DNA of 64,000 bases from Balanoglossus misakiensis. Its lineage: Eukaryota > Animalia > Hemichordata. The position numbers and the translations under genes were made by a program. Below are positions 1,448 through 53,300 of this stretch, piece after piece. The notes beneath the pieces were generated by a model. It saw nothing but the letters and a program-made list of their open reading frames with translations, was not told the DNA's origin and did not search any database. The stretch's first letter is position 1; each line of letters starts with the position of its first letter. The stretch spans positions 5,442,509 to 5,506,508 of the forward strand of contig CM082586.2 in the NCBI GenBank assembly GCA_040954595.2, in the 5' to 3' direction.

Positions 1448-1810
1448 ACCAAGTACAAGTTGATACTTTCACTGGTGAGTACCCCTATGTATGTTTTTAG
1501 ACTGTAAATTTGTATATCGGGAAGATATCATAGTTTTTCTTGTGCTTTAGCGACAAGCGACGTCGCACGGCGAGACTACGGCTACACGTACGCGGGCGGC
1601 CGGGCGCTGCTCTCTCGGCAGCCGATGACCCGACCCGTACGTTCACGTCCCGTTGTCCAAGTGACTAGTTGCGTCGGCTCGCCGCAAAAGCACAGGAAAA
1701 ACTACGATATGATACCAGGCTACGATATCTTCCTGATAATTATATAATATTGCAGTCTAAAAACGTACATGGTGGTTCTCACCAGTGAAAGAATCAACGG
1801 GTAACTTGGT
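1448..1810. mobile_element. Degenerate ~360-bp inverted-repeat (MITE-like) element
   Basis: Arm ~1448-1566 (ccaagtacaagttgatactttcactggtgag...gtttttagactg...gaagatatc...gtttttcttgtgcttt) is an imperfect reverse complement of ~1668-1810, around a GC-rich core. Confidence 0.7.
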
Positions 1811-1866
1811 GTGCCCCTCCACACACAGTACATTAGTGATATTAATTTAACAGGCAAAATAAGTTT

Positions 1867-2810
1867 GCCTAACCGTTCACCACTGTTTATGGTGGCATGT
1901 GATTTAGCCTAACCGTTCATCATTGGGCATGGGTAACTGCTTATGGTGGCATATGATTTTGCCTAACCGTTAACCATTGGGCATAGGTGACTGCTTATGG
2001 TGGCATATGATTTTGCCTAACCGTTAAACATTGGGCATGGGTGACTGTTTATGGTGGCATATGATTTTGCCTAACCGTTAACCATTGGGCATGGGTGACT
2101 GCTTATGGTGGCATATGATTTTGCCTAACCGTTAACCATTGGGCATGGGTGACTGCTTATGGTGGCATATGATTTTGCCTAACCGTTAACCATTGGGCAT
2201 GGGTGCCTGCTTATAGTGGCATATGATTTTGCCTAACCGTTCACCATTGGGCATGGGTGACTGCTTATGGTGGCATATGATTTTGCCTAACCGTTAACCA
2301 TTGGGCATGGGTGACTGCTTATGGTGGCATATGATTTTGCCTAACCGTTCACCATTGGGCATGGGTGACTGCTTATGGTGGCATATGATTTTGCCTAACC
2401 GTTAACCATTGGGCATGGATGACTGCTTATGGTGGCATATGATTTTGCCTAACCGTTAACCATTGGGCATGGGTGACTGTTTATGGTGGCATATGATTTT
2501 GCCTAACCGTTAACCATTGGACATGGATGACTGTTAATGGTGGCATATGATTTTGCCTAACCGTTAAACATTGGGCATGGGTGACTGTTTATGGTGGCAT
2601 ATGATTTTGCCTAACCGTTAACCATTGGGCATGGGTGACTGTTTATGGTGGCATATGATTTTGCCTAACCGTTAACCATTGGGCATTGATGACTGTTTAT
2701 GGTGGCATATGATTTTGCCTAACCGTTCATTATTTGGCATGGATGACTGTTTATGGTGGCATATGATTTAGCCTAACCGTTCACCATTGGGCATGGACGA
2801 CAGTTTATGG
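1867..2810 (+). repeat. Tandem array of a 54-bp unit (~17 copies)
   Basis: Unit gcctaaccgttaaccattgggcatgggtgactgcttatggtggcatatgatttt; outermost unit is a 40-bp variant. Confidence 0.95.
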
Positions 2811-3212
2811 TGCATTATTTATGGTTTCAAAGCTGGCAATACAATTATCATTTTTTGATGATTTTCACGAGCTATAACCCATGATTTTTTTTTTAAATTG
2901 AAAAATTTTGAAAATTCGCAAAGTGGAAAAAATGTCATTTTTTGATGATTTTCATGAGCTATATAACCCATACTTTTTGTTAAATGAAGAAATTTTGAAA
3001 ATTCGCAAGGTAGAAAAATTTTCATTTTTAATGATTTTCATCTAATGGTAGTAGACTTTGAAAAAAAAAATTCTGATAATTATCTCAGTTCATACATCTG
3101 TATGGGATAATGGTAGTAGAGTTTGAAAAAAAATCCTGATAATTATCCAAAAAATCATATCGCCTGTTAAATTAATATCACTCTATGTACTAAGTTAGGC
3201 AACAAATGTCTA

Positions 3213-4195
3213 GCCACCATAAACAGTCATCCATGTCCAATGGTTAACGGTTAGGCAAAATCATATGCCACCATAAACAGTCATCCATGCCCAATGGTGA
3301 ACGGTTAGGCAAAATCATATGCCACCATAAGCAGTCACCCATGCCCAATGGTTAACGGTTAGGCAAAATCATATGCCACCATAAGCAGTCATCCATGCCC
3401 AATGGTTAACGGTTAGGCAAAATCATATGCCACCATAAGCAGTCACCCATGCCCAATGGTTAACGGTTAGGCAAAATCATATGCCACCATAAGCAGTCAC
3501 CCATGCCCAATGGTTAACGGTTAGGCAAAATCATATGCCACCATAAGCAGTCACCCATGCCCAATGGTGAACGGTTAGGCAAAATCATATGCCACCATAA
3601 GCAGGCACCCATGCCCAATGGTTAACGGTTAGGCAAAATCATATGCCACCATAAACAGTCACCCATGCCCAATGTTTAACGGTTAGGCAAAATCATATGC
3701 CACCATAAGCAGTCACCCATGCCCAATGGTTAACGGTTAGGCAAAATCATATGCCACCATAAGCAGTCACCCATGCCCAATGGTTAACGGTTAGGCAAAA
3801 TCATATGCCACCATAAGCAGTCACCCATGCCCAATGGTTAACGGTTAGGCAAAATCATATGCCACCATAAACAGTCACCCATGCCCAATGGTTAACGGTT
3901 AGGCAAAATCATATGCCACCATAAGCAGTCATCCATGCCCAATGGTTAACGGTTAGGCAAAATCATATGCCACCATAAGCAGTCACCCATGCCCAATGGT
4001 TAACGGTTAGGCAAAATCATATGCCACCATAAACAGTCATCAATGCCCAATGGTGAAAGGTTAGGCTAAATCATATGCCACCATAAACAGTCATGAACGG
4101 TTAGGCTAAATCATATGCCACCATAAACAGTCATGAACGGTTAGGCTAAATCATATGCCACCATAAACAGTCATGAATGGTTAGGCTAAATCATA
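3213..4195 (-). repeat. Tandem array of the same 54-bp unit in reverse orientation (~16 copies plus three 40-bp variants)
   Basis: Unit aaaatcatatgccaccataagcagtcacccatgcccaatggttaacggttaggc is the reverse complement of the 1867-2810 unit. Confidence 0.95.
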
Positions 4196-4657
4196 TCGCC
4201 CGTTAAATAATATCATTCTGTGTACTGCGTTAGGCAACGGGTGTCTAGCACTGTGAACAAACAGCCACACATGCATGCTAAATGGTAGACAGTTGGGGGA
4301 TGGCGTGGAACTGGTTTATTGTCGACGTGCGCGACAGTTTAGGGTAGTCAGGCAAAATCATATCGCCTGTAAATATCTTGTCAGTCAGTCGCATGCCATG
4401 CCACTTCCCCGTCCGTCTACGTTGTTGGGACCGGGAAAACGCATAGTCGTAGTGGGGTATACCCACAGCATGGGGTATCAAATGCCGCGGCAATTTCGAA
4501 CGGTTACTTTTATTTCTGCCCAAAATTCTCATCAGGAACCAGTGTTTTGGTCCACGGGGAACCTACCCACTCAAGGATATCCGGCCATCGCACGATTTTC
4601 CACCGAAAATCGGCGTTTTGTTGACTTTAGTGAGGATTACAAGCCTTACAACGCGAC

Positions 4658-4870
4658 GGCCATCTTGACTATGACGTCATCTTCTCGCAAATAAAATACG
4701 ACCGCCCAGTTTTAGCTCATAAAACCAACATAGTTTAACATTTGGTACGTTTATTTTAAATTTAAAAGCCAGGAAATAAACGAAAGCCAGAAAACATGAA
4801 AAGACAGAAAAAGTTTTGAGTACTGACGAACGTGAAGTTGCGAGAAGATGACGTCGTGAGTCAAGATACA
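4658..4870. repeat. ~30-bp inverted repeat pair about 150 bp apart
   Basis: atcttgactatgacgtcatcttctcgcaa (~4662-4690) versus ttgcgagaagatgacgtcgtgagtcaagat (~4838-4867). Confidence 0.65.
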
Positions 4871-34900: not shown

Positions 34901-37900
34901 GTCCTCTGTGACATCTTTCCTCCACTCAGCCACAGCATCTAACATTGCATTGAAATGAAAGTCAACTCTTCGATCCAACCTCCTGTCTGTGACTTTGCCC
35001 GTCTCCTGGAACAGCTCACACTTATCAACCATCTTCCTCATCTCAGTTCCAGCCTGTAAATAATACAAATACTACTGTAAAACCATCTATACTGTGATTG
35101 TGAATGGTAGTATTATGCATACATACAAGGATAGAAGCAAGAAGGAAAAGATGTCATCAAAATGTTGTTCTGACATGAGACAATTAGCTCAATTTTTGAT
35201 CAGCATGAAAACCCCTCTGGACCTGTAACCGAATGTCCTCTCCAGAAAATTTTCTAGCAATCATATTTGTGCAGAGTCTGTTCTGTAGAAAAAAGCATTG
35301 CACCACACCTACATCACGCACATTCCTCGAACAGGCCCAGTCCATTCCATTCAGACAACAGGGGAAGTCGCCCCTCCAACTTACCTGATGGCACATGACC
35401 ATGATGGGATTATTGATGCACCCCGTCACTATCTGCGCCCCTTTGCCAATGCACTGTCCCAGAGAGTCATCATCCCACACTCTCCCACCTATTCTCTTAT
35501 TGGCTTCTAGGATTTGAACTTTGACCCCACAGTGTGCGAGTTGCCTAGCTGCAGCCAGGCCTGCGATCCCAGCTCCTATCACTATTACATTCTCCTGCAA
35601 TAAAAAAACAGAAAGCAGGAGTTTTATGTCAAATTAAAAATTGATAGAACTGGGAAGATGAATTTTGTGTCTAGTGACACATTACATCTTGGTAGTTGAT
35701 GAACATCTTACAACTAAATACACTGTACTGACCTGATTGCACTTCTGAGGTAATACAGCGTTAAGTGGTTGAGGTAGGTTGCCAACATTGACCAGGCCTT
35801 TCTTCGTTAGGGATTGTAAGATCATCTCCAGGTGGGCTATGTAGCGAATTCTGATCAGACCTCTTACTATGCAGTGCTGTGCACACTTGCCGACAGTCAA
35901 TACTTCCTGTAAACAGTTTCATAACACACTCTGTATAAAGTTGCCAATTGTCAAAAAATCCTGCAAATTTATAATTTCACCATCCAACATACATGTAACC
36001 TAATTGTGGAGAAACGGACACACCAATACGAGTTTCCAACAGACCTCAAAGATATATATGTCTTGGAAACTCACTTTGCAGTTTTGATTCCACAATGCAA
36101 GTACGATATTTCTGAGTCCAAGATACATCATACTGTATTTGGTCAGTTCGGGAAACTCCGCCAACTCCTCCTCTTCAATGACGTCAGGGCGTACACAGAA
36201 TGCTTTGCCGTCTTCATCTGGCTGGTAGAAAGGCTGGAAATAGGAATTTATACCTGGAGAACGGGAAAGGAAAGAATGTATCAGGAGAATGTTAAACGGG
36301 AAAAGAAAATAGATGCAGAGAAAAAAAAGATCCATAGCATATCTGCTGGAGCACACTGCTTAATTCTGAGCAGAGCAACTAGTGCTGAGTTTACTTATGG
36401 TAAAATGCAGTAACTGTGCATTAGGGTTAGGGATTTATAGAACATGACATCCCAAAGGTCTGTCTACAGCCTACCATGTGAATCTCCATTTTGTTCTGCT
36501 GTCTTCGGACAAGTCGGGGTCATTCCCACACCGTCTGGGTAATAGTTGGACAGGAAACATGCGGCTGGGCTCTTCTTGACAAGAGGTGTGTACGTCAAAC
36601 TCGCTAACCAGTCTGGAAGATTCAGAGCATCATCCACCCGGGGGTCCTCATGCACAGAGCATGATATAACACGGCTATTCTGAGAGATGACAATAGAACA
36701 ACATCGGTGGTTAGTCGTTGTCTTATGGTTGTGCCTTCTGTGCATAAAACACAGCAACATCAGGTGGAAATAAGTTACCTTACCTTTGTAGCAGCCATTC
36801 CACACTGATATCTACTGATCAAGTCTGGTGTGAGGCCTTTATCTTTACCAAGCTGTCGCCATTTCCTGCAGTTTGGCTTTGTACACTGTATCCAATACGG
36901 CAACTGCACGTCCGCCATGAACGCCCGGATTGTGGGTTCGCTCTTTCCGTTGGTCACCCATTGTTTCTTCCACATCTGGAAATGCCGATAGCCACTCTTA
37001 TGGCTAAACCAAAGAATGGAAGAAAAAAAATGCCAAACTTAGGATGAGGGTATATGTTCAGGGGGTGACTGTCCTATACACAACTCATGTTTGTTGACAA
37101 TGCTCACCTTCTGTAATAATGTTCAAAACACTCGTTGCAGTAGTGTTCTCCCCCTGAAAGATGGTACCATCTGGAGGTGTTGCCACTTTTCCCGGCACAT
37201 CTGCAACCAAGAGATAACAAGAATGAGACTATGATTTTTTTTTAGTTCAAGCTAGTTAGTTACATGGAAGTGCAACAGTGATGGAATGACAAAATACCAG
37301 TGTGTGCAGACTCACACACACACACCCGGCTTATATTCTCAAATGATGAGTAGCCTCCAGTAGGATGTTGCACGGTTGCTTGGCAACGCCCAGTCCAACC
37401 AGGCACCTACTGCAGACCTTCACATGTTCATCAAGAACACATGATTGGAGTTGCCTGCAAAAACACAGCCATTAGAAACAGAGGTCACTGTGACAAGAGA
37501 TCATTTGTGTGACTGATAAAAGGCGTGGTATTATCTCAATTGCAGCCAGGTCAAGTGGGTTACTGCCAGTTGTAAGTCACGTAACGAACGTAGCCTATGT
37601 TCATTACATCTACAATCTATGCTTACAGTAAACATACATTGTAGATGTTGTAATGGAGATTTACGTTGACAATACAGTACAAGAACACATTCAGGTATAC
37701 ATGACAAGGCAGGCTGATTTTGCTCAAAGACAACTCATATCAAATTCTCTCAAGGAATAGTACACCTACACAATTCACAACACATTACTTAAATCTCGCT
37801 GGTTAACTCAGAGAGTTTTACATGCAAAATAGAGTAAAACGCGTCAGAGAGATTTCATTTATCGTTAACGTGTATTACATGTACACACAGCTGCCACACC

Positions 37901-39175
37901 AAGCTCAGAAATAGCTGACAGCTATATCCTCTCTTTTATTTCAAAGAGATGCTACCATGTCAGTGCTAAGGAGATTTATTCATGTAAGCACATAGGTATT
38001 GATCAGTAGAGTGCATCACCTTATCATCAGACATGCCGCTATCTCGGACGTGCGAAAGACACTGAATGAGGCTCAATAGACTAGCTATGGTTCAGGTTCA
38101 ACAAAAGAATGAAGAGTGAATTGAGAACGTGTGTAACTGGGACGACTAATACATCTTGTAGAACAGCAAATGACTGGTCCAACGTGGCAATACCATTTAT
38201 TCATCTCTGTACAGTGTCATATTAGCATCATTCACTCTAATCCACTAAAGTATTCACATGGATTCAGACAGCTCAAAAGAGCCTGACTTATTCAATATGT
38301 GAACATCATAATCTGTTCATCCCTAGAGGCATTCCCACTATAATACCAGAATTGTATCATCATCTTCTGTTTTTATATCGCATTATAGATCCAGCAGACA
38401 CATAGCATTTAAATTTTGTAACAATTTATATTGTAAATAAAATTCTGTAAATACTATTATTCCATAGCGATTATTATTTCATACACATAATGCCACCATT
38501 TCCATGCAACAAGAAATGATGAGGTCATTTAATTTTCCACTTCTATCGATCTGAAGTGCCAGCATAATTCTAACAACTAACGTGCAAACCACACAAAAAC
38601 ATCTGTGAATATGATTAATATTCTACATGCATGAGAACATACTCTTGTAAAAAAAAAAAACCTGCACGCAACATTCTCAGCTCTCAACTGGTTCAAAGAT
38701 CAATTACATTATAACACGCAGGGCATCAAATTTGTTTATGACACCAGCAGGTCAAAGGTCAATTTCTAAGCGCTAAACAACTGTATTCAACAGAAACATG
38801 GCCTCGAAACCCCAAGCAGAGTAATAAATATGACAAAGGCAGTGACTGTGCTGTGATAAATTTGGGGCAGAGCCACAATATCGGCATTCAGCAACTTTGT
38901 CAGTCAACTTCTTGTTTTTGCAATGCAGGTTTGACTTCCTTGAAGAAAACCCAAGATCTAGTTGAGACTTACTTTTCCGTAACAGCCACGAAACACACTG
39001 GCCTTCTGGTGGGACAACTACTTTTATCGCATGACCTGAAGACCTTCTTGGCGGGCACCTCTTCCATGTCGTTTTCCTGCGTGTTGCTGTTGATGGAGCC
39101 CTCGGACGCCTTGCGTTTTGGCAGCTGTCTCTGTCCCAGTCTGGGAGACCTCAACGACTTGCCCCTTGCCGGCAT
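31925..39175 (-). CDS. KDM1B: Lysine-specific histone demethylase 2 (LSD2)
   Basis: Coding exons 39175-38973, 37200-37108, 37003-36784, 36679-36475, 36253-36075, 35906-35733, 35594-35385, 35053-34888, 34701-34574, 34318-34112, 33488-33372, 33186-33061, 32713-32582, 32338-32186, 32008-31925. Zinc finger ([17 protein letters not shown]), zf-CW ([18 protein letters not shown]), SWIRM, FAD-binding [10 protein letters not shown]-terminal [25 protein letters not shown]. An acceptor 7 nt before the ATG implies an upstream non-coding exon. Confidence 0.95.
34446..34557 (+). repeat. (TGAA)n/(CGAA)n compound microsatellite in a KDM1B intron
   Basis: Directly visible tetranucleotide repeats. Confidence 0.95.
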
Positions 39176-41104
39176 GGCTTCACTGCAATTAAAGATATAC
39201 GATAATTGACCATGGAAGAGAGAACAGCAGGTGATTACAAATAACATCTGGAAATGGCTGAAATACAACAAACATTACCCAGCATGGTAGAGAGTATACC
39301 AATGGAAGCCATTTTTTGGGGGGGGGGATTCCAATACAGTCCACAAACAGGATAATTATTAACCACAAGTGAAACCAAAAGTAAACGTTATGTTCCTACA
39401 AAATCTAATTTTGACAGTTAAGTAACGCACAACATAAATTTCATCATTTGAGGTATGTCCTTACCCTACCAGAATATTGAATTTTAAGTCTAATAGCAGG
39501 TGTTACACGTTCATAATCCCACTGACAATTGCAAACTGAGGTGGCAACATATATATAATACAAGCTAATAAAAAAATCAGTATATCAATTTAGGCTGGCA
39601 CCATTACATGTATGCTATGCTAATTCGATTATAATGAATGTTTGATGAATGCAATTGACACACTGTAAAATATACCCTGACAACATATCTTGGAATGATG
39701 GGCTTGAATCATTTATTACACCAAAAAAAATACATTCAGGGAACATGATTAGAGAACCTGGTAATCTAACATGCTCTTTATCTCAATGACCTGCCAACTG
39801 CTTTTGTACTGTAACAATAAGAGGCAAAAGCATATGTTGAATTTGTGAGAGGAAAATGCCTACCCTACTGTTCACACGTAACATCCATCATCACACAATG
39901 AGAGAGTTTAATTACAGATGGCATATGTCATGCACTGCAGGGAGTATATGTATACCCTTACCTACACTGCACATGCAACATTAACACAAAAGGGCAAAAT
40001 ATCTATATGGCTTCACAATTCTCCTTGGTAAATGAAGTACATTGCTTTGTTCGTCATTGCCGTGGAACAATCATCCTACTGTGATATTTCACAATGAAGT
40101 ATTATTGATCTTTTAAATTGACCTGGCATGCTGAAGAGGTAACTGAGCCAATTATTGACATTCTCAGGTTCTGAATATTCTATACGCTACTTCACACATC
40201 AGTAGACAGGATCACCACATGCTCTTTACCATTTACTGAGACACCTTCCAAAGATGCCCCGATAAACAACAATGCAGCAATTGTTTACGGACATAACAAA
40301 ACTAACATATGATACATTATTATACATGCTAGTAGGAATAATGACAGTATCAAACAATTACGGAAAGCATTCAAAATTCCTGATATTTGAAAATGTATTA
40401 AAATAGGTGTTTTGTAGGAGAACTGGCAGAATACTCTTCTGCAAGAATTTCCGGCCAACGAAAGAACTATATTAGGATAATTAGGCTGTTATTAAAGTTA
40501 ATAATTTTCTAGATCTAATGTTTGTTTTTTTTTTTTTCTATTAGTCAACTGGAAACTAAGAACTTGAAAACCAAGTAAGGGAAGCAATCAATACAGATAC
40601 AAGACAAACAGGAAGAGCAATCAATCAAAAACAATATTGACTACTAATAATGACTATCAATTGACCAATTGTCTATCAGATGTATTTCAATTCTCAAATA
40701 TCACTCTGGTTATATGATAAGAAACCTACATGTAGCTTAATACGCATTGACTGGCCTCCGTGAATTGGTTTTCCTGATCAAGCATATGCATTTCCATGGT
40801 CGGATTCCTCACAGTTCTTGTAAAAAGCCATATTTGACGCTTTAGGAATAGTAAAACAGCAACACCTTGGAATTACATGTAGTTACATGATAGGTCTTGG
40901 CCTTGGGAGCCACATACTTCCGCACATGCTCATAATAAAAACAGACCGGACTGTCTCCATCATGATCAAATTAAGTCAAACAGGCTGCCAAAAAATTGCG
41001 CATAAATGCAATTTGAGAGACAAATAATACATCATGGTCCTTTGTCACAACCGATCAATTCCATTATAGGGTGTTAAATACCTCTCTGTAAACAAAGCCG
41101 GTAT

Positions 41105-41810
41105 AGGGATAAACTGTGTTAACGCCATCTTGGAAATTTGCAGTGCATTGTGGGTCACTTGACTTCCGCATGGGGGGGAGTAACTCAGTCGAGTGTCAGC
41201 TGTTCACTGTGCAAGTCAATGACAACAAGCGTCTACAACCTATCCAATTTTCCAGCGGTTTAGTCAGATTTTCCTCAAGTAGCGTTAGTAGTAGTAGTAT
41301 AAGTAGTTATATTTTGTTCTGTTTTAGTGTTAGTTATAGTTATTTATAGTTATTTTTGAGTTTTTAGAACTGTTCTAGTTTTTAAGAACTGTTCTCTCTC
41401 GCCTGTTCGATCGACGACGGAAGCAAGAGTTCAACAATATCAGCGGTGAGTACTTGTATTAAGTTGTAAACTATCACTCTGCACTTACTTTACCACCTCT
41501 AGGGGCAAGAATGGACGTAAATCGACCATAAAAACTGATTTGGTGTACTTTTCATAATGCTTCAAGTTAGATTTCCAAAGCATTCGAAACAATGGTTTCA
41601 CAGCCATTTACAAAAACGTGTGAATGGGCGTCACATCATCACTTTCACTGCTGCATTGTGGCCCCTTGTTTAGTTGATCATTTGGCAGCCAATGTTCATT
41701 GTTTCTTGAAAGTCACTTGAATAAAGAATCGTGATGTTTGATTGAACCATTTTAATTCTTGTACATCCAAACCTACAGCCATCGAACGTCATGTTAAAAG
41801 AGGGCGTGGC
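41105..41810 (+). repeat. Left terminal inverted repeat (~705 bp)
   Basis: Reverse complement of 48139-48846. The ORF track gives the same 77-aa translation at 41116(+) and 48835(-). I found only a handful of differences by eye, all in the inner half. Confidence 0.95.
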
Positions 41811-42248
41811 TCTGGCTTTGAAACTTGTCCTTGTTTAGACTACTGTTCAAATTAGACTACTGTTCAAAACTGTCAACGTACGACCATCACTGAGTGAACA
41901 TTTCAAACTATCATCCATATCAGTTTCCAAATTATCTGAATAATGTGTAATTCAGTGCAATGCACCTTGGAAATTTGACAGAGGATTTGACTTACATGCA
42001 TGGCTTCATCATTCATGTTTAAGTTATGTTTGATTCTTTGCAATGTTTAAAGTTTGTTTTCTATTGTTTTCATTTATTTACCTTTTACTGCTAAATAGTA
42101 ATGACACATGGGAAATAATCTGTTCTTTAATCACCCCAAACAGACATTATGGTTAAAATATGGAAGTATAGTCAATATGTTATTGATATACACCCTTTAT
42201 GTGCCCATTTTAAACATTTTCCCACTTGTATACTTTATCAGATTAATC

Positions 42249-44551
42249 ATGCCAAGAGGAGGTCATCACTGCTGTGTCGTTGGCTGTAGCAGTAACAGCA
42301 AATGGTCTAAAGAAAAACACTCCTTCTTTCGAATACCATCTGCAAAAACAAGGGGGAAACTCAGGCAGCAATGGCTACAACGCATCAAGAGAGCCCCACC
42401 TTTCAAGGCTAGTGACAATACAAGGGTGTGTGATTTACATTTTATTGATGGTACTCCAAGCAAGTCAAATCCCCTCCCTGTGCTGAACATGGGCTACAAA
42501 GTCAAAGTAACCATTCCACGACGACCTATCATTAGATCAAGCCTTCCAGTTCCATCAAGAGTGAAAAAACGAAAACCACAAGCCATTTCCACAACCACTG
42601 CTGAAGAACCTATGGACACACATGGAGACTGTGCACTTCAGGTAGAAGCCAATCCAGTACAAATTGCTCAAAATGACAAGTCAATTAGATCAAGCCTTCC
42701 AGTTCCATCAAGAGTGACAAATCCAAAACCACAAGCCATTTCCACAACCACTGCTGAAGAACCTATGGACACACATGGAGACTGTGCACTTCAGGTAGAA
42801 GCCAATCCAGTACAAATTGCAAATGACCATGACTATGACAGACCAAATACTTCCTGTAGTCATGGCTTTGCAAATGACCATGACTACATAGTAGAAAATA
42901 TTGAACAGAGCCATGAAACTGTACAAATGCCTGAACGTGTAAGGGAAGACCAGTGTGAACTCCCAAAGAACTCCCATGGAACATCAATCTTGGACAACAG
43001 CCTGTCATCAAATGTATCCGTAGAGGATGGAGACTTAACAAGTGTTGTGAAGAAACTCTCAACAAAAGTCAAGATACTGAAAAGCAAGATAAGAAGGTTG
43101 CAGTCTTTGCAGAAACAGAAGCTAAAGTTCAGTATTGATGACATTTGCCACAGTGATAGGAAGATACTGTTTTATACTGGATTAACGTCGTACAAAGCCT
43201 TTGTCATTGTTTTAGGAAAAATAATGAAAAAGGGTGCTGAAAGGCTGTCTACCAACACAAGGCCCAGTCGAAGACCATGGTACAGAAAAGGGAGGAAACC
43301 TGGTCCTGTGCGCAAGCTAAAACTTGAAGACGAGTTCCTATTGGTTTTGATGAAGCTCAGGCTTGATCTGCTTGATGAAGATTTAGCAGACAGATTTGGA
43401 ATCAGTATCAATTTAGTGAGGCTGCTTATCCAGAGATGGGTACCATTGATGGCTAGATGCTTGAAGAAGTTAATTAACTGGCCCTCTAAAGACCAGGTTA
43501 GTGATGACATTCAGATTTGTTTGTTGGTAATCTGGAACCTGGGGCTGTATGTTTTGCAGTACTTTTTCCGTGTAGCAGAGTCATGTGATGTGAGAGCAAA
43601 CACATTGTCTAAAATCCTTGGTTATAATTTTGGGTTACAAGCATTACAGCTTTGTGTACACCTTGGTGGATATATTTTATTATGTCGGAAGATACACAAA
43701 TTTTGAGAAAGGGTTACAACCATGTCAAATCCCAAGTGCGAGTTTTGTTTTCAACTAAAATGTTTTATATTTTGAAATAAATTATTTTCAACTCCTATCA
43801 ATTTCAGGTAAAGGCACATCTTCCACGGCAGTTCAAAGCAACCTACCCCAAAACAACAGTAATTATTGACTGCACAGAAGTTTTTATTGAGCGGCCAAGT
43901 AACATCGTGGCAAGACAAGAGACCTACTCAAGCTACAAACACCACAACACTGCAAAGTTTCTTGTTGGTATCACACCTACTGGCGGTATATCATCATTGT
44001 CCAAAGTCTGGGGAGGAAGAGCTTCTGATCGGCACATTGTTGAACAAAGTGGTAAGTTTATTGCCAATTGTCAACACAGAATTCCAATTATGTGTGCATG
44101 GGTTGAGAAAAAGTAAAGATTTCAGAAAACTTTCAGAAAACTTTACTAAGTTATAGAGAAAACGTCATCGCTATTCAATTGATCCCCTTTTTTCGCAGAG
44201 ACTGAATTTTTGGATAAACTGGAGTATGGTGATCAGGTGATGGCTGACCGTGGATTTGACATTGGTGATGTACTAGCTCTGCGAGGTTGCACTCTTAACA
44301 TCCCTCCATTTACCAGAGGAAAGACACAGCTGAGTCAGAAAGAAGTCGAACAGAGCAGGCAGATTTCATCTCTGAGAATTCACGTGGAACGAGCAATAGA
44401 ACGTATTAAGAGATTCAGGATCCTTCAAGGAGTCTTCCCCTACCAAAGACTACATCTACTGGAAGACATAATTACTGTTTGTGCAGCATTAACTAATCTT
44501 TTGCCACCATTGGTAGTGGATCAGGCACAGTCTCAAATTGAAGACATGTAA
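42249..44551 (+). CDS. Transposase: THAP zinc finger + coiled coil + HTH + Harbinger/ISL2EU-type DDE domain (~614 aa)
   Basis: Exons 42249-43496, 43808-44051, 44199-44551 splice in frame (1845 nt). THAP C2CH (CCVVGC...FFRIP...W...RVCDLHF...P), HTH (LMKLRLDLLDEDLADRFGIS), catalytic motifs IIDCTE, MADRGF and RIHVERAIERIKRF, plus YSSYKHHNTAK. Confidence 0.93.
42531..42820 (+). repeat. In-frame 153-nt (51-aa) tandem duplication inside the transposase linker
   Basis: IRSSLPVPSRV..KPQAISTTTAEEPMDTHGDCALQVEANPVQIA occurs twice (nucleotide copies start at 42531 and 42684). Confidence 0.95.
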
Positions 44552-45344
44552 TTTTCCATTCTTGTAAAATGACAACAGCATACATTTTTTATAACAAACC
44601 AAGTTCAAGACATGAACACTTTATTTTCTCTTCTTGAAAGGGAGTTATCTTATGTCATTTCAGATTCATAAATTTACATTTGTTTTAAAAAAAAAATGTG
44701 CATACAATGAAATGGTAATTTATTCCTCTGGAAAACTGAAAGGAAAAGTTTACATTTTTTTACCTCTGCTGTCTGGGATGCGGAGCTAATCAGATTGGGT
44801 GATTTTCCTTTGAACATTGCCTTTCCTTATTGCTTTAAAATTTGTTATGCAATTCTGTAGAGGTGGCCTAATTCAGATTTGTCCAAACTGGTAAAATTTG
44901 CATGTTTTTGCCATTTTTAGTCAATGTCATCTAGAACAGGCAGTCTGACTTGCTGTAAACGTTAGTATCGGAGGTTCATATGAGTGAAGGGAGTAAAATA
45001 AAGTCAAAGATTGGAAATGTGCATATATATACACCCTAGGTCCTTGTTTAGTAATGTGTAAACTGTAGCATTTCAAGAAAACTATATAACAATACTACAA
45101 TCGTAATGTTAGCTTCTGTACCATTTTAATTCGGTAATAAATATGTAAATAACAATGTGTCTGTAAATGAGATTAATTAATCAGCAATCTGTGGTGTGCA
45201 CTAATTGAATTTGTAAATACAAAGCTTTTCGCTATCCAGATACATGCCGTCCCTATCTCATCTGCCATTGTTTATCATTTTCCTATCTTTGCACTTGCCT
45301 CCCCCCCCCCCCCCCCAATGTCATTTCATATATCCTCTGTCTTA

Positions 45345-47796
45345 TCACGCATCTCTGCAACCATTACAAAACCAGTCATCACTTTCTAGTCCCTTTTCTT
45401 TGCCCGTCAGGCCTACACACTTGAAGTGGTACCAAATGTCGCATCTATCACAGGCTACTCCACTTTTCTTGACATCCCGTCCGCAAGTACCGCATGGCCA
45501 CATACACTTTCGTTTGCCCTTTGTACTGGTCGTAGACGGTTTAATGGCTGGCAGATCAGTTGGGGCAGGCAACTCTGCTTGCAGACCTGTTGAAGCCACG
45601 TTGGCCAGAGTGGAGACATCAAGAGGGTCAGCAGTTGCATTAATGCAGTCTGATCCAGGCTGGTGACTTGGTGGGAATATCTCTTCCAGGACTGCTCGAA
45701 TGACATCAGGAACATGGCGGGCTGGCGATGAAGATCCTTGTGGTCGGATTTCATCCTTCATCATGATTGGAACCACATGTTGGAGATAGAATGAGTCAAC
45801 GTTGCCTTTGAGTCTGCCCCAGAAGGCTTCATCAAACAGAACTGGAATGACAAGTAAACCCAGCTTGGTAAACACAACAAAATCACACACTTGAATATTA
45901 AGAACACCCATCTGGGCTTGTACCTGTGTGTAATATTGATGTGTTTGAACCAAGCTGTAGTTTCCGTTACTGTGTCGTTGGATATACTTGATGGTATGTC
46001 CAACAGCCTGCTGGGGTGTGACATCTCTGGCACTGTACGGACATTTACATTCAACAACACGTGTCACACAGCAGTCGCAGCTAGCAATCCTGTCAGGGGA
46101 TACACCAATATGTGAGTCCCCTACAGGGACAGTCAACCCACATCTGGTGACAACCAGGTTTTTGTGGTGGGTAGACATGGCTGTCTCGTACATCTGAACT
46201 GCAGTGTCTTCTTTATCTCTCCCCCATCTGATGGCCATTGGTGTATTACCTCTTCTAAATGTAGTCTTGCCCTTTATCGACGCCATTACTGAACTGGACG
46301 GTTGACAACCATTTCTTTCCACAAAGCGGTGAATACTGTGCATTTTTGATGCTGTGATTCTGAACTTCCGATGAGCATGCCACTGTTCACTGTCACTTTG
46401 ATCTATGGTGGTCTTGTTTATTTCAGCTGTCTGTTCCTGAGTTATATTGTTCTTGATGTACTGGAATAACCCTTCATCTGTGATGTGTTGACTTTGAGTA
46501 ATGTACTGCTCGGCCGCTTCAATGGCAGTATTTGGATGGTTGATTGTGAGCGGTGTTATCACGGGCGTACTTTCTAATTCTACTTCTTCTGCAATGCCAT
46601 CAAAAAACACTTCATCCGTGTTTACACACTGACGTGGTTGAATCAAATGAAGGGCAACTGGAGTTCCTGGGATTTGACAGACAGCATCCCATATGTTGTC
46701 ATCAGAGTCAGATGTAATGCTTGGAATATGGGCTGGCCTGAAAGTTCTTGGTTGAGTGCTGTACTTTGGGTGCCTGAAGTCAATGTCCTTCAACAGTGCA
46801 GGGCGTGTTTTCGCACGGTAATTGTCATTCCAGGCACAGGGGACCTCTGTACATGTTGAATTCCGGTTCAGACCATTATCAGTAGCTGCTACTACCTTAA
46901 ACAATAATGCAGCAACGTGGGTGCAAGCTTCGCCTAACCTGGAATAATGTGGGAAAAATACAAGTACATGTTAAACTACAGTAAACAATTTTTTAAAAAT
47001 ATTTTATCCAAATGTAACTTTTGCATATGCCTGTAAAATAGATCATGTACACTTACCCTGCCATACACTGACAGCGAGCTCCCTTGACAGTCAAATCGTC
47101 AAAGTGTACAATCACCCACACGTGGTATGGGTCGGTGCTGGCTTGAGACCTTCTCACTGTAGTTTTTAGATAAACATATGGTTCCTCCGCAACTTTGTGA
47201 ACATACACTTTACTAACGAAGCCATTATAGAAAAACTGATATCCATCAAGAGACCGGTAGGCTTGCAGTGTGTCTGCTGTGTAGATCCCTATATGTGAGA
47301 GGTCAAAAACGAAAGTTTTGTACACGCTGTAGTTTCATAAATGATGGAAGGGAGACAATGCAAGATATTATTAATCTTCTTATTAATCACATAAAGCAGA
47401 ATTCTGTTTAGAGATGCATGAATAATATAAAGAAACTGCAAACTTAATACAAGTGGATATCATGTATAACATACCTGGAGTGTTGATAAGATAATTAAAA
47501 ATGTCTGCAAATGTCAGAGGAGGTGTTTTCCTTATGTCTGCATCCCATTCTTTAACTGTGTCTGGATGCGGCAATTGGTTGTCACCTGACAGTAAAATTT
47601 CTGTGAGCCGGATTTCACTTCTTCTTTGTGTTTCTACTTGGGATGGATTAACAGGAAGCTTCAATTTCCACGCCCAAAAGGCCAGCACTGCCAACTCTCC
47701 CTGGCGCCCATCAGCTCTAATTTTTCTCTGGCCTAGATATTGTTTTAGTTCTGCCACGGTGTGTCCTCGAAAGTGTTCGAGAGTAAGATCCGCCAT
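45345..47796 (-). CDS. Transposon accessory protein: SAP-like + SWIM zinc finger + YqaJ/lambda-type exonuclease + C-terminal PHD finger (~715 aa)
   Basis: Exons 47796-47475, 47288-47057, 46938-45345 splice in frame (2148 nt). SAP-like TVAELKQYLGQRKIRADGRQGEL; SWIM CQCMAGLGEACTHVAALL spans an intron; YqaJ motifs WHAHRKFRITAS, WGRDKEDTA, SPDR..VECKCP, YYTQVQAQM; PHD CGTC..CDRCDIWYHFKC..WFCNGC. Confidence 0.92.
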
Positions 47797-48138
47797 GATA
47801 ATTGCTGCAAAGAAGACAAGCTAAGTAATTAATTATCAAGGAAACAATATTTCAATAAAAGATGTGTAGAGTTACAAATTGAAAAATAGAAAATGATACA
47901 AAAACAGTAATGGTTATCCACATTTATCCCTAAAGAAACAGGGCCAGCTGAGAAGATTTCAACCAAACGAATTTGTCAAATCAGCAAGTCAAAATTCTTC
48001 CATTAAAATCTCCCAGTGGTTGGATTTAGTCAATAGCAACACAAATTGTTGAAAGCCAAAATTGCAGAGCATTATAGTGTGAATGGCCGAAGTGAACACA
48101 GATTTTAGCATTGCATTTGCTGCTAGTACCAGCTGGGT

Positions 48139-48846
48139 GCCACGCCCCCTTTTTTACACAACGTTCGATGGCTGTAGGTTTGGATGTACAAGAATAAAAA
48201 TGGTTCAATCAAACATCACGATTCTTTATTCAAGTGACTTTCAAGAAACAATGAACATTGGCTGCCAAATGATCAACTAAACAAGGGGCCACGATGCAGC
48301 AGTGAAAGCGATGATGTGACGCCCATTCACACGTTTTTGTAAATGGCTGTGAAACCATTGTTTCGAATGCTTTGGAAATCTAACTTGAAGCATTATGAAA
48401 AGTACACCAAATCAGTATTTTATGGTCGATTTACGTCCATTCTTGCCCCTAGAGGTGGTAAAGTAAGTGCAGAGTGATAGTTTACAACTTAATACAAGTA
48501 CTCACCGCTGATATTGTTGAACTCTTGCTTCCGTCGTCGATCGAACAGGCGAGAGAGAACAGTTCTTAAAAACTAGAACAGTTCTAAAAACTCAAAAATA
48601 ACTATAAATAACTATAACTAACACTAAAACAGAACAAAATATAACTACTTATACTACTACTACTAACGCTACTTGAGGAAAATCTGACTAAACCGCTGGA
48701 AAATTGGATAGGTTGTAGACGCTTGTTGTCATTGACTTGCACAGTGAACAGCTGACACTCGACTGAGTTACTCCCCCCCATGCGGAAGTCAAGTGACCCA
48801 CAATGCACTGCAAATTTCCAAGATGGCGTTAACACAGTTTATCCCT
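48139..48846 (-). repeat. Right terminal inverted repeat (~705 bp)
   Basis: Reverse complement of 41105-41810. Confidence 0.95.
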
Positions 48847-49299
48847 ATAGACGGCGTAATTGTGCCCCCTGCGGTAAACGTTGACTGACGCAAGTAATGT
48901 ACATGTGTACATGAAACATACATACCTTGACTATTTTTCTCGAACAGTTGTGTCAGACTCCCTGATTGGGCATTCAAGGCAAAAACTGTACCGCCACGAA
49001 GTAGCTGATGGCTAGCAGTTAGGTGACGTGGTGGGGAGTTGGCTATAAACCCATGAAAACAAAGCCTGTTTTGGCGAGTTTCGGTCACGCCGAATGTTTT
49101 ATGGCTTGAAATACACACAGTATTATGCACGCACGCTCGCTGACTCGCTAACAATCACGTACGCATGAAATTCTTCTTGGAGATCCCTGTCCACCGCTTC
49201 TCCGGCGCTTGATTTCGCTAAACGTGTTCACATGTCACACTGACAAACAGAATGCCGTGCTGTACCGTTCGATAAATCGCTAGAATCCTTGCATTTCAC

Positions 49300-49650
49300 G
49301 ATATAAACAGTCCTCAGCTGACACAAAAGACAAAGACAAGGTCGTCTGCGAATAAAAAAGTGTAAACCGGAAGTAATACGTAGGTTTATCAAGATTCGCG
49401 AGGTGGCAGTAGAGTTATAAATTTCCCCTAAAAGTTGTCAAATGCCAGAGAAAAAGTTCATCATGAAGTAAATGAATGATAAAATATATAGTTTGTATTT
49501 TTCTGCAATGAAGTTTCACGTAATGGGTACTTAATTCGAGAAAAGGTTAAATATGTTAATAATTGATATTTTTGGTCACCTAGAGGTCCTCGAATTACCA
49601 AAACAAGATCGCACGATCGTGATACTGATGGCGATCAAGGCAGGTAAGAT
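49300..49650. promoter_or_regulatory. Putative VPS13B promoter and non-coding first exon, possibly bidirectional with KDM1B
   Basis: CpG-richer segment with CCGGAAGT (49367) and TTCGCGAG (49395). Strong + strand donor CAG|GTAAGA at 49644 pairs plausibly with the acceptor at 50323 just upstream of the VPS13B ATG. Confidence 0.5.
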
Positions 49651-50165
49651 GATCTAATGTAACTTTCAGCAAGTGTGTACAGTGGCTTCTGTCCTTCATT
49701 TGAAAGGCCGTGCCGAGAAACTGAAGGCAAGTGTACGTCATAACACAAACATCGTGATCAAGCCTTTGTAAATGATGCTGTCACCTCCCGTCAGGTGACC
49801 GGTCAGGCCACGATCCCAATCCTTGCCACGTCGTCCGGATGGTGTCACTGTTGTGTTGGTACCCGAAATGTTTATGACAGGGCGAAAGCGCATATACCAT
49901 ATGTGTCTGAAAAGCAAATAGCATGAAACATTGTTTTATCTTTCAAAGCAATTATATTTTTTACCCTTAGTCGGAGATCCAAATATAAAAGCCACCCAAC
50001 ACTGCAGCAGATAGAGTATAAAACTCAGTCCTAATATTAATATTTTGTATATTAATCTGATTTCATATCAGCCGGAATCTACCACGCACGACACATCAGT
50101 GCACTGTAACAATTGTCAAGCAGTGTACACTTGACAATCGTTACAATAATGTAGCGTGCTTTAAT

Positions 50166-50221
50166 TTGATATGATATATGATATATGATATATGATATGA
50201 TATGATATGATATGATATGAT
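50166..50221 (+). repeat. (ATATG)n/(ATATATG)n microsatellite
   Basis: Directly visible. Confidence 0.9.
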
Positions 50222-50380
50222 TTAAATTATAAGGGACAATAACAGTGCTGCAGATGCCATTCATTGATTTTCATTTATCAATTAGTTCAGATGATAATCA
50301 TTTGTTTCCTTTCTTGTTTACAGGTTGAGAGTGGGTTGCAATGTGTTCTGGTCTGGTACAAGGTAGTGGTGTAGAGAAAC

Positions 50381-53300
50381 ATGTTTAAGATAGAGTCTTA
50401 CATCGCCCCTCTCTTGCTCAGCTATGTCGACAAATATATCAAGAACTTGAAACCAGAGGATCTGCAGCTCTCGTTATGGGGAGGCGATCTAGTTTTGAAC
50501 AAGCTAGATCTCAAGCTGGATGTCTTGGAGCATGATCTGAATTTGCCGATATCGTTCGTCAGTGGGAACATCCACGAGCTGCGAATCCACGTGCCGTGGC
50601 ATAAGCTGGTTTATGAGCCTGTCGTGGTTACCATCAACACAATAGAGTGCGTCTTGAAGCTCCGCGATGCCGCCGATAGCGATCATGGGAGTACCAGCTC
50701 AAAGTCAAGTTCGACGCAGAAAGGCCGAGCAGAGAAAAGGTCAAAGGCCATAAAATTCGAACAGGAAGATGTTCCCCCCAGTTACATCCAGACACTGGTG
50801 AACAGAGTCATCAATAATGTGAACATCGAGGTGAATAACCTCATACTGAAGTATGTCGAAGATGATATTGTGTTATCGGTGAACGTGAAATCGTTTGAGT
50901 CGTTCAGTGTGAACAGCAACTGGGAAAGAGCGTTTATAGAGCTCGCCCAGCCCGACCTCGTATTGCGACGAATCCTCCAGCTGTCCGATATAACGGTGTG
51001 TCTGGATAAACGGAACGCCAGTGGAAAGATCGAAATGTACCAAGAGCCGCTTCTGTACAAGTGTTCGGTCACCGGCCGTATGCACATGACTTTCGACGGC
51101 GTAAACGCAAAGCGCGCAAGCGTGATCAGGATCAACACCATATGCGAGAAGCTGGACATCTCCATCAGCGATACGCAACTACCCATGTACATTAGGCTGA
51201 ATATGTTACTGCTGGCCTTATACTACGGCGAAATTGAGGTGCCGGGGAAGGAAAATAAGGATGATGTGGAAAAGTCTAAAGATGTTGAGCAAGTGAAAGA
51301 GGACGGTGCAGTTGCAAGTGGTAAATTTTACCCCAATCTGATTAAAATCAGATGTAGGGTACGGCGACCTATTTTTAATATTTGCTATGCCCAGTATCCT
51401 CTTATGCTGTCATAGTGTGAGGCAACAGCATAAGAGAATACTGCGCAAGCAAAAGGTGTCACCATACCCTACATCTGATTTAATCACATTGGTTTTACCC
51501 TTATATCTGATTGATATCCCTTTTATCACTTGAAGCTAAATAATGTGCAATAACATCGAAGTTCCCTAAATTTTAGATCAGGTAACATACAGTGACAAAA
51601 TTCAGAATTTGAACCAAAATTGGATTTATTGTCAATTTTACACTTAGAATCGACAGATGCTCAGTTGGAAGAAATCGATCCAAACAACGAAGGTTGGGCA
51701 TCGTGGGCGTGGTCATACGTTCCTCAGCTGGTGATGGTGGAGGATGAAGAGGAACTAGAGAGCTACCAGCAAGGGAGACCCAGGAAGAAAATGGAGCCAC
51801 CAGTTTTGGTGCTGGGACTTTACTTTGTCAAGTCCAGGGTTACATTCAAGGTATTTTGTTCATCCAACAGGTGTTTGCCTCAGTATTGAAAACTTGGGAG
51901 ATGTCGCGTTGTAGACAAAGATTTGTTCTTGGCGGAGGGTGACCAATCGAATACTGTAAAACACTTTATTTTTGCGAGTTAAATTTTTCGCAATATCGAG
52001 AGAGGCCACTGTTTCGCGAGTATTAATTTTCGCGTTCTCTTATTTCATTCACTGCATCGTTATCTTCAAAAAACAATTTACGCGACTTTTTATTTTCACG
52101 CTATTTTGGCTCTCGCGTATTTAGCGAAAATTCACTGCTCGCGAAAATAAAGTGTTTTACAGTATATTTTATCTATCACATTTCCTCTTACAGCTGACAG
52201 ATGTAAGGCAAGACACTCCTTACTATGGACCGCAGAAGATTGTTTTCAACCCCTTCCTGTGTCTTCAAGTGGACGGTGCGGCCATTGAGGTTGTCTTCAA
52301 GGGGGATCCATTCTTCAATGCCCAGATTGGTTTCACTAATGTCACCATCTTTGGTCTGGGAAACTGTGCGTGTGAGCTGCCTGACCTCCAAGATGGCCAC
52401 CGCCAGCAGGTAATTTTGATCATATCTTGCATACTGTACCTATCAGTGACTGTTCCAGTCTGATTAAAATCAGATGCAGAGCCTAACATGTCATAACTGA
52501 ACCCTTAGCACCCTGGCCCCTGGTGACCTATTGGCATCCTTCAGAAGTTTCTTACAGGAAAACAGTAGCAAATTTCAAATAGTTAAGTACCATTTGAAGC
52601 GATATGAACTCCAAGCATCTGATAATTAGCTGCACACAGTCTACCCTAGGTAAGTGATAAAAAGCTTGATTGTTGACTTTGCTGTTTATATCTTCCTTCA
52701 GCCGTTTGTGAGCTGTGGTGACTTCAACATGGAAAGAAAACAGCAGAACTACATAACCGGGTCTCTGTTCGACGAGGAGAGCCCTGAGAACAACAGTCAA
52801 AGATCGCAGTTCATATTTGATGTGGAGGAACATCAGATGAAGTATTCAGAGACCTTGGCTTTGCAGAGATTTGGCGCATTCTGGTTGGATTATCTTTACA
52901 CCATGGAAGTCAGAGAAGATGAAGGTAAATGCTGTGTGGCATAATTTTAGATGCCTTCAGAAGTTCAGTAGTTATGTTTTTGTGGTTGAATTATTCTTAT
53001 AATTGTGTTAGAAGTGCTCAGTTCAAAACTGTTTTTACAGGCAGCAAGTCATCCAGACACAGTGAAGAATTGCAATACAATCACACCAAGGAGACGTCTT
53101 CGAAGAAATTCTTGTTTGGATCGTCGACTTGGAATATCAACAGCAGTGCAATACATAGACTGCAGAAGTTTCTATTCTGTGCAAATGACCATGAATATGA
53201 ACCATACAGTAAACCCAAAGAAGGTGAGTTTGGCATGTCTACTGAGATTGGATGTTAGATACCACACAACAGGGACGTGTGAATGTATGAAGTAAAACGT

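What the first reader, a model, noticed from the sequence alone, without database searches (positions are those of the whole stretch)
41105..48846. Mirror-promoter transposon: both ~700-bp TIRs appear to supply an identical promoter and non-coding first exon to two inward-facing genes
Seen: each TIR has a YY1-like CGCCATCTT (41123), an ETS-like ACTTCCG (41162), an Inr-like TCAGTC (~41185) and a consensus donor CAGCG|GTGAGT (GT at 41446; mirror at 48505). Beyond each TIR there is an acceptor just before the gene's ATG: tttatcag|attaatcATG (42241/42249, transposase) and tctttgcag|caattatcATG (47805/47796, exonuclease). Known: ISL2EU elements encode a transposase plus a YqaJ protein, and DNA-transposon TIRs are normally treated as transposase-binding ends. 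Inference: here the long TIR doubles as a duplicated expression cassette (promoter, 5'UTR exon, first part of intron 1), which would co-regulate the two proteins and explain the TIR length. I am not aware of this having been described but cannot check the literature.
Basis: partly seen in the sequence, partly recalled or inferred. Interest (0 to 1): 0.88.

Follow-up and report, generated by a model that had tools for sequence, protein, structure and literature searches.

The report
Mirror-promoter ISL2EU transposon, MuDR-like design
An intact animal jumping gene has two near-identical 700-base ends that likely serve as the same promoter and same non-coding first exon for its two inward-facing genes; end-borne promoters are already known from maize MuDR, but this predicted shared exon, and the mirrored promoter-like ends seen across its family, were not found in my literature searches.

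Summary
The element is an intact 7,742-bp ISL2EU transposon (AT duplication, THAP-HTH-DDE transposase, convergent YqaJ-PHD gene) with 706/708-bp TIRs; the published range is 6-259 bp. All motifs sit at the stated coordinates. The TIR also carries a 14/16 ZNF143 match and is CpG-rich, unlike the unique leaders. The donor is the best GT upstream of both genes. The YqaJ acceptor is strong; the transposase acceptor is weak. No RNA data could be obtained, so transcription and splicing remain inferred.

The concept is not new: maize MuDR transcribes two convergent genes from promoters in its TIRs. Relatives support end-borne promoters. Of 20 elements with both ends resolved, 15 have both ATGs within 171 nt of the termini and 11 carry an inward GCCATNTT box at both ends (interior about 1%). 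One (L025) has its transposase ATG inside a 478-bp TIR, in frame with both genes. None of 7 relatives with TIRs over 60 nt shares a strong donor, so the shared exon is unreplicated. The mirrored box may instead be a transposase site.

Verdict: new variant of a known kind.

The parts
41105..48846 (.). Complete ISL2EU DNA transposon, 7,742 bp, AT on both flanks
41105..41810 (+). Left TIR (706 nt); predicted promoter, exon 1 and first 365 nt of intron 1 of the transposase gene
48139..48846 (-). Right TIR (708 nt); same predicted cassette for the YqaJ gene
41123..41131 (+). YY1-type box (label recalled); same core, same orientation at 24 of 40 ends of relatives; mirror 48820-48828
41141..41156 (-). 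ZNF143/Staf-like site, 14 of 16 to the JASPAR consensus; mirror 48795-48810
41162..41168 (-). ETS/GABP-like site (label recalled); mirror 48783-48789; a second ETS-like site at 41418
41185..41445 (+). Predicted shared non-coding exon 1 (start uncertain); one ATG in 261 nt (41219, 14-codon uORF); mirror 48766-48506
   Evidence: inferred, no transcript seen
41446..42241 (+). Predicted 5'UTR intron of the transposase gene, 796 nt; strong donor in the TIR, weak acceptor in unique DNA
47805..48505 (-). Predicted 5'UTR intron of the YqaJ gene, 701 nt; same donor, strong acceptor
42249..44551 (+). Transposase, 614 aa, coding exons 42249-43496, 43808-44051, 44199-44551; THAP, HTH_Tnp_4, DDE_Tnp_4; open frame
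45345..47796 (-). YqaJ-family protein, about 716 aa, coding exons 47796-47475, 47288-47057, 46938-45345; weak SAP hit, YqaJ, PHD; open frame
44552..45344 (.). Gap between the stop codons; poly(A) signals at 44997 and 45136 (+) and 45130, 44724, 44625 (-), so the 3' ends may overlap

Best explanation
This is an intact ISL2EU cut-and-paste transposon whose two near-identical 700-bp ends likely each act as the same housekeeping-type promoter and likely give the same spliced non-coding first exon to the transposase gene on one side and the YqaJ gene on the other. Shown: the element, TSD, two convergent open genes, TIR identity, motif positions and CpG contrast. Inferred: host factors of the YY1, ZNF143 and ETS type start transcription within the first 100 or so bases of each end; the donor at 41446/48505 joins the acceptors 7-8 nt before each ATG; both proteins are therefore made under one control. 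Inferred origin: mirrored short promoter ends are the family's ground state, and the long TIR arose when one end was copied over the other. The copy was tolerated because its inner edge fell inside a 5'UTR intron. The length is thus a tolerated extension rather than a need. The mirrored box probably doubles as a transposase site, which would give symmetrical feedback on both genes.
For: (1) YY1, ZNF143 (14/16) and ETS motifs lie within 46 nt; none of 500 shuffles held YY1+ETS. These factors mark bidirectional and housekeeping promoters in human (PMC3082894); ETS at -10/-30 and YY1 at +1 create start sites in reporter edits (bioRxiv 10.64898/2026.06.25.734173); YY1 motifs were mapped at ubiquitous amphioxus promoters (PMC6292497 legend). 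(2) CpG o/e is 0.92 in 41105-41445 against 0.19 and 0.20 in the unique leaders; the host promoter region has 1.1. (3) The donor is the top GT on both sides and as strong as the internal donors (9.0-10.5 bits); the YqaJ acceptor is the top AG. (4) An unspliced leader would carry 20 further ATGs before the transposase start. (5) Relatives: 62 of 89 loci show the convergent pair. Of 20 with both ends resolved, 15 have both ATGs 50-171 nt from the termini; GCCATNTT lies inward at 24 of 40 ends, reversed at 0 of 40, in 1 of 36 flanks and 17 of 1564 interior windows; CpG o/e is 1.09 at ends and 0.42 inside. In L096, L097 and L102 the 83-89-nt TIR ends 3-15 nt before the transposase ATG. In L025 the only in-frame transposase ATG lies inside a 478-bp TIR and is in frame with YqaJ too. 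(6) MuDR precedent.
Against: The transposase acceptor is weak (3.7 bits, about 15% by chance), and stronger AGs lie at 41501 and 41837. None of 7 relatives with TIRs over 60 nt has a donor of 8 bits or more in the TIR. Acceptors before ATGs in neighbouring lineages are mixed: L040 10.0/1.3 bits, L081 5.8/8.9, L074 0.2/3.4, L063 4.4, against 15% of random windows at 5 bits or more. The ATG shortage in exon 1 is significant against mononucleotide shuffles (P about 0.03) but not dinucleotide shuffles (P about 0.5). The TIR's CpG level ranks only 27 of 181 windows. Seven of 20 relatives lack the YY1 box; ETS and ZNF143 motifs are not family-wide. The box's distance from the terminus shows a roughly 10-bp spacing and differs by 10-11 nt between the ends of three elements, as expected of a transposase site. 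Motif function is extrapolated from vertebrates to an unidentified invertebrate.
Confidence: 0.62

Rival explanations
1. The mirrored boxes and long TIRs serve the transposition complex (THAP binding sites and a host DNA-bending helper), as in Galileo and P elements; each gene has its own start site in unique DNA, and the donor is incidental.
For: P-element THAP sites lie at bp 53-63 and 41-51 of the two ends, and Galileo's long TIRs hold several THAP sites (PMC3688188). The ISL2EU boxes lie at 21-69 nt with roughly 10-bp spacing (Rayleigh R 0.63, p about 0.003 over 16 distinct ends; p about 0.04 on left ends only; ends are not independent). The 10 nt after the core are shared within an element (9.2/10) but not between elements (3.5/10). 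A 10.4-bit donor arises by chance in about 14% of 700-nt stretches.
Against: The window's TIR has no tandem subrepeats beyond short low-complexity runs. The unique leaders are CpG-poor, hold none of the scanned motifs and have ATGs up to 50 nt (transposase) and 127 nt (YqaJ) before the start. In compact relatives there is no room for a promoter outside the mirrored end. Binding and promoter roles are not exclusive.
Confidence: 0.14
2. The TIR is the promoter of both genes, but the exon model is partly wrong: another start (at the YY1 box near 41126) or other acceptors (41501 inside the TIR, 41837, 47931) are used, or only the YqaJ gene splices as drawn.
For: The transposase acceptor is weak and better-scoring AGs exist. 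YY1 motifs sit at +1 in human promoters. An in-frame Met lies at 42177.
Against: Acceptors at 41501 or 41837 would leave many upstream ATGs. The AG at 42240 is preceded by 70 AG-free nt. Homologues start at MPRGG/MPKGG.
Confidence: 0.16
3. In this copy the genes are silent or driven by the host. The element lies in the 5' intron of a KDM1B gene transcribed in the YqaJ direction, so YqaJ RNA would come from the host promoter, and the TIR motifs would fire mainly outward.
For: KDM1B coding exons lie at 38972-39175 and 36781-36984 (-), a 9.0-bit minus-strand donor at 48925, and a CpG-rich region 48847-49900 shared with VPS13B. Mu TIRs also hold outward promoters (bioRxiv 2023.06.05.543741).
Against: It cannot explain the transposase (antisense to the host gene) or the family-wide pattern, which is independent of insertion site. 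The host exon at 48925 is itself only predicted.
Confidence: 0.08

Closest known systems
Maize MuDR (Mutator superfamily; PMC3440606, PMC10401008, bioRxiv 10.1101/2020.01.09.900282; passages seen)
   Same: Two convergent genes (transposase and helper); promoters and start sites inside near-identical TIRs; TIR also binds transposase; TIR symmetry regenerated by copying one end onto the other, sometimes over 1,100 bp.
   Different: Different superfamily and kingdom; TIR about 220 bp. The mudrA 5'UTR runs on into unique DNA, and the passages seen place no shared splice donor or whole first exon in the TIR (the primary 1995 paper was not held).
ISL2EU group of PHIS (PMC4482050 passages and 18 Table S2 rows; PMC4122938 and PMC9179366 passages)
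   Same: AT TSD, THAP-HTH-DDE transposase, YqaJ second ORF, animal host; closest proteins from Ptychodera flava (83% in the DDE region) and Glandiceps talaboti (adjacent loci LOC144438466/7).
   Different: TIR 706-708 bp against 6-259 bp published; 7.7 kb against a mean of about 4.8 kb. The word 'promoter' does not occur in the main text of the three papers.
Galileo and P element (THAP transposases; PMC3688188, passages)
   Same: THAP-domain transposase; subterminal sites 40-70 bp from the end; Galileo has long TIRs.
   Different: Single gene; Galileo TIR length comes with tandem binding repeats, absent here; no TIR promoter reported in the passages seen.
Spy group of PHIS (PMC4122938, passage)
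   Same: Related superfamily with TIRs from 9 to 1,474 bp and no subrepeats.
   Different: One ORF, no TSD; function of the long TIRs not addressed in the passage seen.

Membership tests
ISL2EU (PHIS) | AT target-site duplication | tested here: met
   AT at 41103-41104 and 48847-48848; no empty site was available, so the register within TATA is by analogy with relatives (18 of 20 left flanks and 19 of 20 right flanks read AT)
ISL2EU (PHIS) | Transposase with THAP, HTH and DDE_Tnp_4 | tested here: met
   PF05485, PF13613, PF13359 above cut-off; 614-aa open model
ISL2EU (PHIS) | Second ORF with YqaJ exonuclease domain | tested here: met
   PF09588 E 4e-15; about 716-aa open model
ISL2EU (PHIS) | TIR usually starting GG; target preference A|AT|T | tested here: inconclusive
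   End reads AGGG (GG from 41106); the flanks give T|AT|A here and in several relatives
ISL2EU (PHIS) | DDE phylogeny within ISL2EU | tested here: inconclusive
   Groups with P0012/P0013 (support 1.0) among YqaJ-paired loci; the tree had no Harbinger or Spy outgroups
MuDR-type TIR-promoter design (works-like) | Two convergent genes each beside a near-identical TIR | tested here: met
MuDR-type TIR-promoter design (works-like) | Transcripts of both genes start inside the TIRs | not testable with these tools
   No RNA run was listed; only motif, CpG and comparative evidence
Mutator superfamily (membership) | MULE transposase and 9-bp TSD | tested here: not met
   DDE_Tnp_4/THAP transposase and 2-bp flank duplication
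Galileo/Foldback-type long TIR | Tandem subrepeats in the TIR | tested here: not met
   Only short low-complexity repeats among 9-mers of the TIR

The most novel reading that the evidence does not exclude
ISL2EU transposons as a family run both genes from mirrored ends that fuse a host YY1-type start element with a lineage-specific transposase site, giving symmetrical feedback control. End-to-end copying repeatedly lengthens the TIR and survives only where both genes stay expressible: in the 5'UTR (L096, L097, L102), in a 5'UTR intron so that two genes share one first exon (this element), or in frame so that the two proteins share an N-terminus (L025, L088).
Probability: 0.35. Interest if true: 0.65.

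Novelty: new variant of a known kind. Interest (0 to 1): 0.45.

Why it matters
How ISL2EU elements express their two genes, and what YqaJ does, is stated as unknown (PMC4482050). If the ends are the promoters, the two proteins are co-expressed by construction, every non-autonomous copy carries two portable housekeeping-type promoters, and TIR length variation gets a testable rule. An intact, probably young element with known ends is a direct substrate for reporter and transposition assays. It would also show that the MuDR design arose again in an unrelated animal superfamily, here with a whole exon duplicated.

Tried and rejected
No whole genome is held, so copy number and empty sites could not be checked. 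No RNA holder was listed; this is no evidence either way, and no reads could be laid. The first metagenome scan with the single YqaJ protein gave 0 of 75 stretches. Viral-contig scans gave 15 YqaJ-only loci with no transposase (dropped) and no transposase hits. The window TIR had no blastn match in any fetched locus. Rfam gave no match in 40800-49500. Earlier-findings look-ups gave nothing bearing on the promoter claim. Rows dropped before the end counts: of 89 ISL2EU-transposase loci, 25 had no YqaJ hit, 2 had another arrangement and 62 were convergent; only 20 of the 62 had both ends resolved, partly by hand. L076, L083, L086 and L094 were dropped as copies of counted families; L088 is cut inside its TIR; L055 and L073 have mirror segments that are not clearly terminal; automatic terminus calls with low scores were rejected. 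Two counted pairs are 84-87% identical (L018/L030, L068/L069); collapsing them gives 9 of 18 with the strict box at both ends. The host species was not identified: VPS13B is 51-62% identical to listed vertebrates and invertebrates. A THAP-like TxxGGCA reading of the box's 3' half is recalled; the top 10 listed papers held no such string, so it is not used as evidence. PMC1310652 passages and the abstract of bioRxiv 2022.01.21.477252 added nothing decisive. Literature searches for a prior description: 'ISL2EU'+'YqaJ' (3 papers), 'ISL2EU'+'promoter'+'terminal inverted repeats' (4, listing only), 'terminal inverted repeats'+'promoter'+'convergently transcribed'+'transposon' (8), 'YY1'+'terminal inverted repeat'+'DNA transposon'+'promoter activity' (4). 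None listed describes ISL2EU TIR promoters; Repbase reports and subscription journals are not covered.
Full report
Observation. The element spans 41105-48846 with AT on both flanks. Its TIRs are 706 and 708 nt, identical for the first 429 nt, with 9 differences further in. Both genes are open. The transposase has 614 aa with THAP, HTH_Tnp_4 and DDE_Tnp_4 domains. The convergent gene has about 716 aa with YqaJ and PHD domains. Their ATGs agree with the starts of hemichordate homologues, which are also neighbours in Glandiceps. This is an ISL2EU element; published TIRs of the group are 6-259 bp (PMC4482050 passages; 18 Table S2 rows seen).

Is the TIR promoter-like? Within 41123-41168 lie a YY1-type box, a ZNF143/Staf-like site (14 of 16 to the consensus quoted in PMC8865105, best in the window) and an ETS-like site. 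None of 500 shuffles of the TIR gave YY1 plus ETS in the first 100 nt, though the motifs were picked after the fact and the YY1 and ETS labels are recalled. YY1, GABP/ETS and ZNF143 mark human bidirectional promoters (PMC3082894 passages). Inserted ETS (-10/-30) and YY1 (+1) motifs create start sites (bioRxiv 10.64898/2026.06.25.734173 passages). YY1 motifs were mapped at ubiquitous amphioxus promoters (PMC6292497 passages). CpG o/e is 0.92 in the outer 341 nt, 0.19-0.20 in the unique leaders and 1.1 at the neighbouring host promoter region; the whole TIR ranks 27 of 181 windows. The Inr-like hexamer is weak evidence (35 copies in the window), but it would place the ETS site at about -22.

Is the exon real? 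With recalled generic matrices the donor is the best of 87 and 76 GTs and matches the internal donors in strength. A donor this good arises in about 14% of 700-nt stretches. The YqaJ acceptor is the best of 53 (about 0.3% by chance). The transposase acceptor is weak (about 15%), though it follows 70 AG-free nt. The predicted exon has 1 ATG in 261 nt and the predicted transposase intron 20 in 796 nt; the shortage is not significant against dinucleotide shuffles. No RNA run was listed, so nothing about transcripts is shown.

Relatives. Alignments of homologues fetched 89 loci; 62 show the convergent pair, 25 lack a YqaJ hit and 2 differ. Twenty have both ends resolved. In 15 of 20, both ATGs lie 50-171 nt from the termini, so the promoters must lie in those ends or in the host. 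GCCATNTT occurs inward in the first 100 nt at 24 of 40 ends (both ends in 11 of 20; 9 of 18 after merging two close pairs), reversed at 0 of 40, in 1 of 36 flanks and in 17 of 1564 interior windows. CRE, E-box and KLF/SP-like motifs are also enriched at ends (14, 12 and 7 of 40; 0 of 36 flanks). ETS is not clearly enriched, and ZNF143-like motifs occur at only 2 of 40 ends. CpG o/e is 1.09 at ends and 0.42 inside. In L096, L097 and L102 an 83-89-nt TIR covers almost everything upstream of the transposase ATG. In L025 a 478-bp TIR contains the only in-frame transposase ATG, and the same 25 codons run in frame into YqaJ. In L088 the contig ends in an identical 55 nt that read in frame into both genes, and YqaJ has no other Met before its conserved part; the shared frame has a 1-in-3 chance each time. 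Against the specific exon model, 0 of 7 relatives with TIRs over 60 nt have a donor of 8 bits or more in the TIR. Acceptors just before ATGs in neighbouring lineages are present in some (L040, L081, L063) and absent in others. The closest relatives (P0012, P0013) could not be read as DNA.

A result that favours a second role. The ten bases after the box core are element-specific and shared by both ends (9.2 of 10 against 3.5 between elements). The box lies at 21-24, 38, 48-50, 59-61 or 68-69 nt from the terminus and differs by 10-11 nt between ends in three elements. P-element and Galileo THAP sites lie at similar distances (PMC3688188 passages). The box is therefore likely also a transposase site. 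Overlap with the start region would let the transposase damp both genes at once; this is inference.

Mechanism. Most likely each end is a housekeeping-type promoter, and the window's element has extended the family's short mirrored ends by copying one end over the other, as proposed for Mu homomorphs (PMC10401008 passages). The copy's inner edge lies inside a 5'UTR intron, 365 nt past the donor, which leaves both genes intact. My odds: promoter in the TIR for both genes about 0.8; shared donor used as drawn about 0.62; start within 30 nt of 41185 about 0.4.

Comparison and novelty. MuDR already has this logic: convergent mudrA and mudrB transcripts start inside the 220-bp TIRs (PMC3440606, PMC10401008 and bioRxiv 2020.01.09.900282, passages), and Mu TIRs also fire outward (bioRxiv 2023.06.05.543741 passages). 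The element works like MuDR but is not a Mutator. What I did not find in print ('promoter' absent from the main texts) is any account of ISL2EU end promoters or of a whole first exon shared through TIRs. Repbase entries, subscription papers and bioRxiv supplements were out of reach and could hold such an account.

Context. The insertion lies upstream of the coding exons of a KDM1B gene, about 80 nt from a predicted host donor at 48925, beside a CpG-rich region shared with VPS13B. Host read-through could add YqaJ transcripts and would carry both TIRs, so RNA tests must separate TIR-led from host-led reads.

Verdict: observation confirmed; interpretation partly supported and untested at RNA level; new variant of a known kind; interest 0.45.

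Noticed in passing
window 36781-50600: The element sits in the predicted 5' intron of a KDM1B gene (- strand) that is head to head with VPS13B (ATG 50381). A host pre-mRNA through it would hold both TIRs (a possible 700-bp duplex), and the host donor at 48925 could splice to the strong YqaJ acceptor.
   Followed up: partly
L025:331-808 and 4352-4829; L088:1-55 and 3128-3182: TIRs run into coding sequence in frame with both genes, so transposase and YqaJ protein would share an N-terminal peptide.
   Followed up: partly
ends of L018, L040, L048, L061, L067, L068, L079, L080, L090, L096, L097: A composite box (constant CCATNTT core plus an element-specific 3' half) lies at roughly 10-bp steps from the terminus.
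   Followed up: partly
L028:1-15 and 4765-4779: The contig's left end matches the right end 209 nt in, suggesting a collapsed TIR of over 220 nt that ends 40-50 nt before both ATGs.
   Followed up: partly
window 42531-42836: Recent in-frame 153-nt tandem duplication (98% over 137 nt) in the transposase linker.
   Followed up: partly
window 44552-45344: Poly(A) signals allow the two 3'UTRs to overlap by up to about 400 nt, a possible source of antisense RNA.
   Followed up: no
window 1774-4214: Foldback-like element: two inverted arrays of 54-nt tandem repeats about 450 nt apart.
   Followed up: no
L096, L097, L102, L103: ISL2EU elements lie in long contigs of prokaryotic genome bins; mis-binned host DNA is the likely cause.
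   Followed up: no
window 41488 (- strand): A 7.9-bit donor on the outward strand inside the TIR; with the bidirectional-type motifs, outward transcription into KDM1B is possible.
   Followed up: no
window 42249-44551: The DDE region is 83% identical to a Ptychodera flava protein; if the host is not a hemichordate this would point to horizontal transfer. Host not identified.
   Followed up: partly
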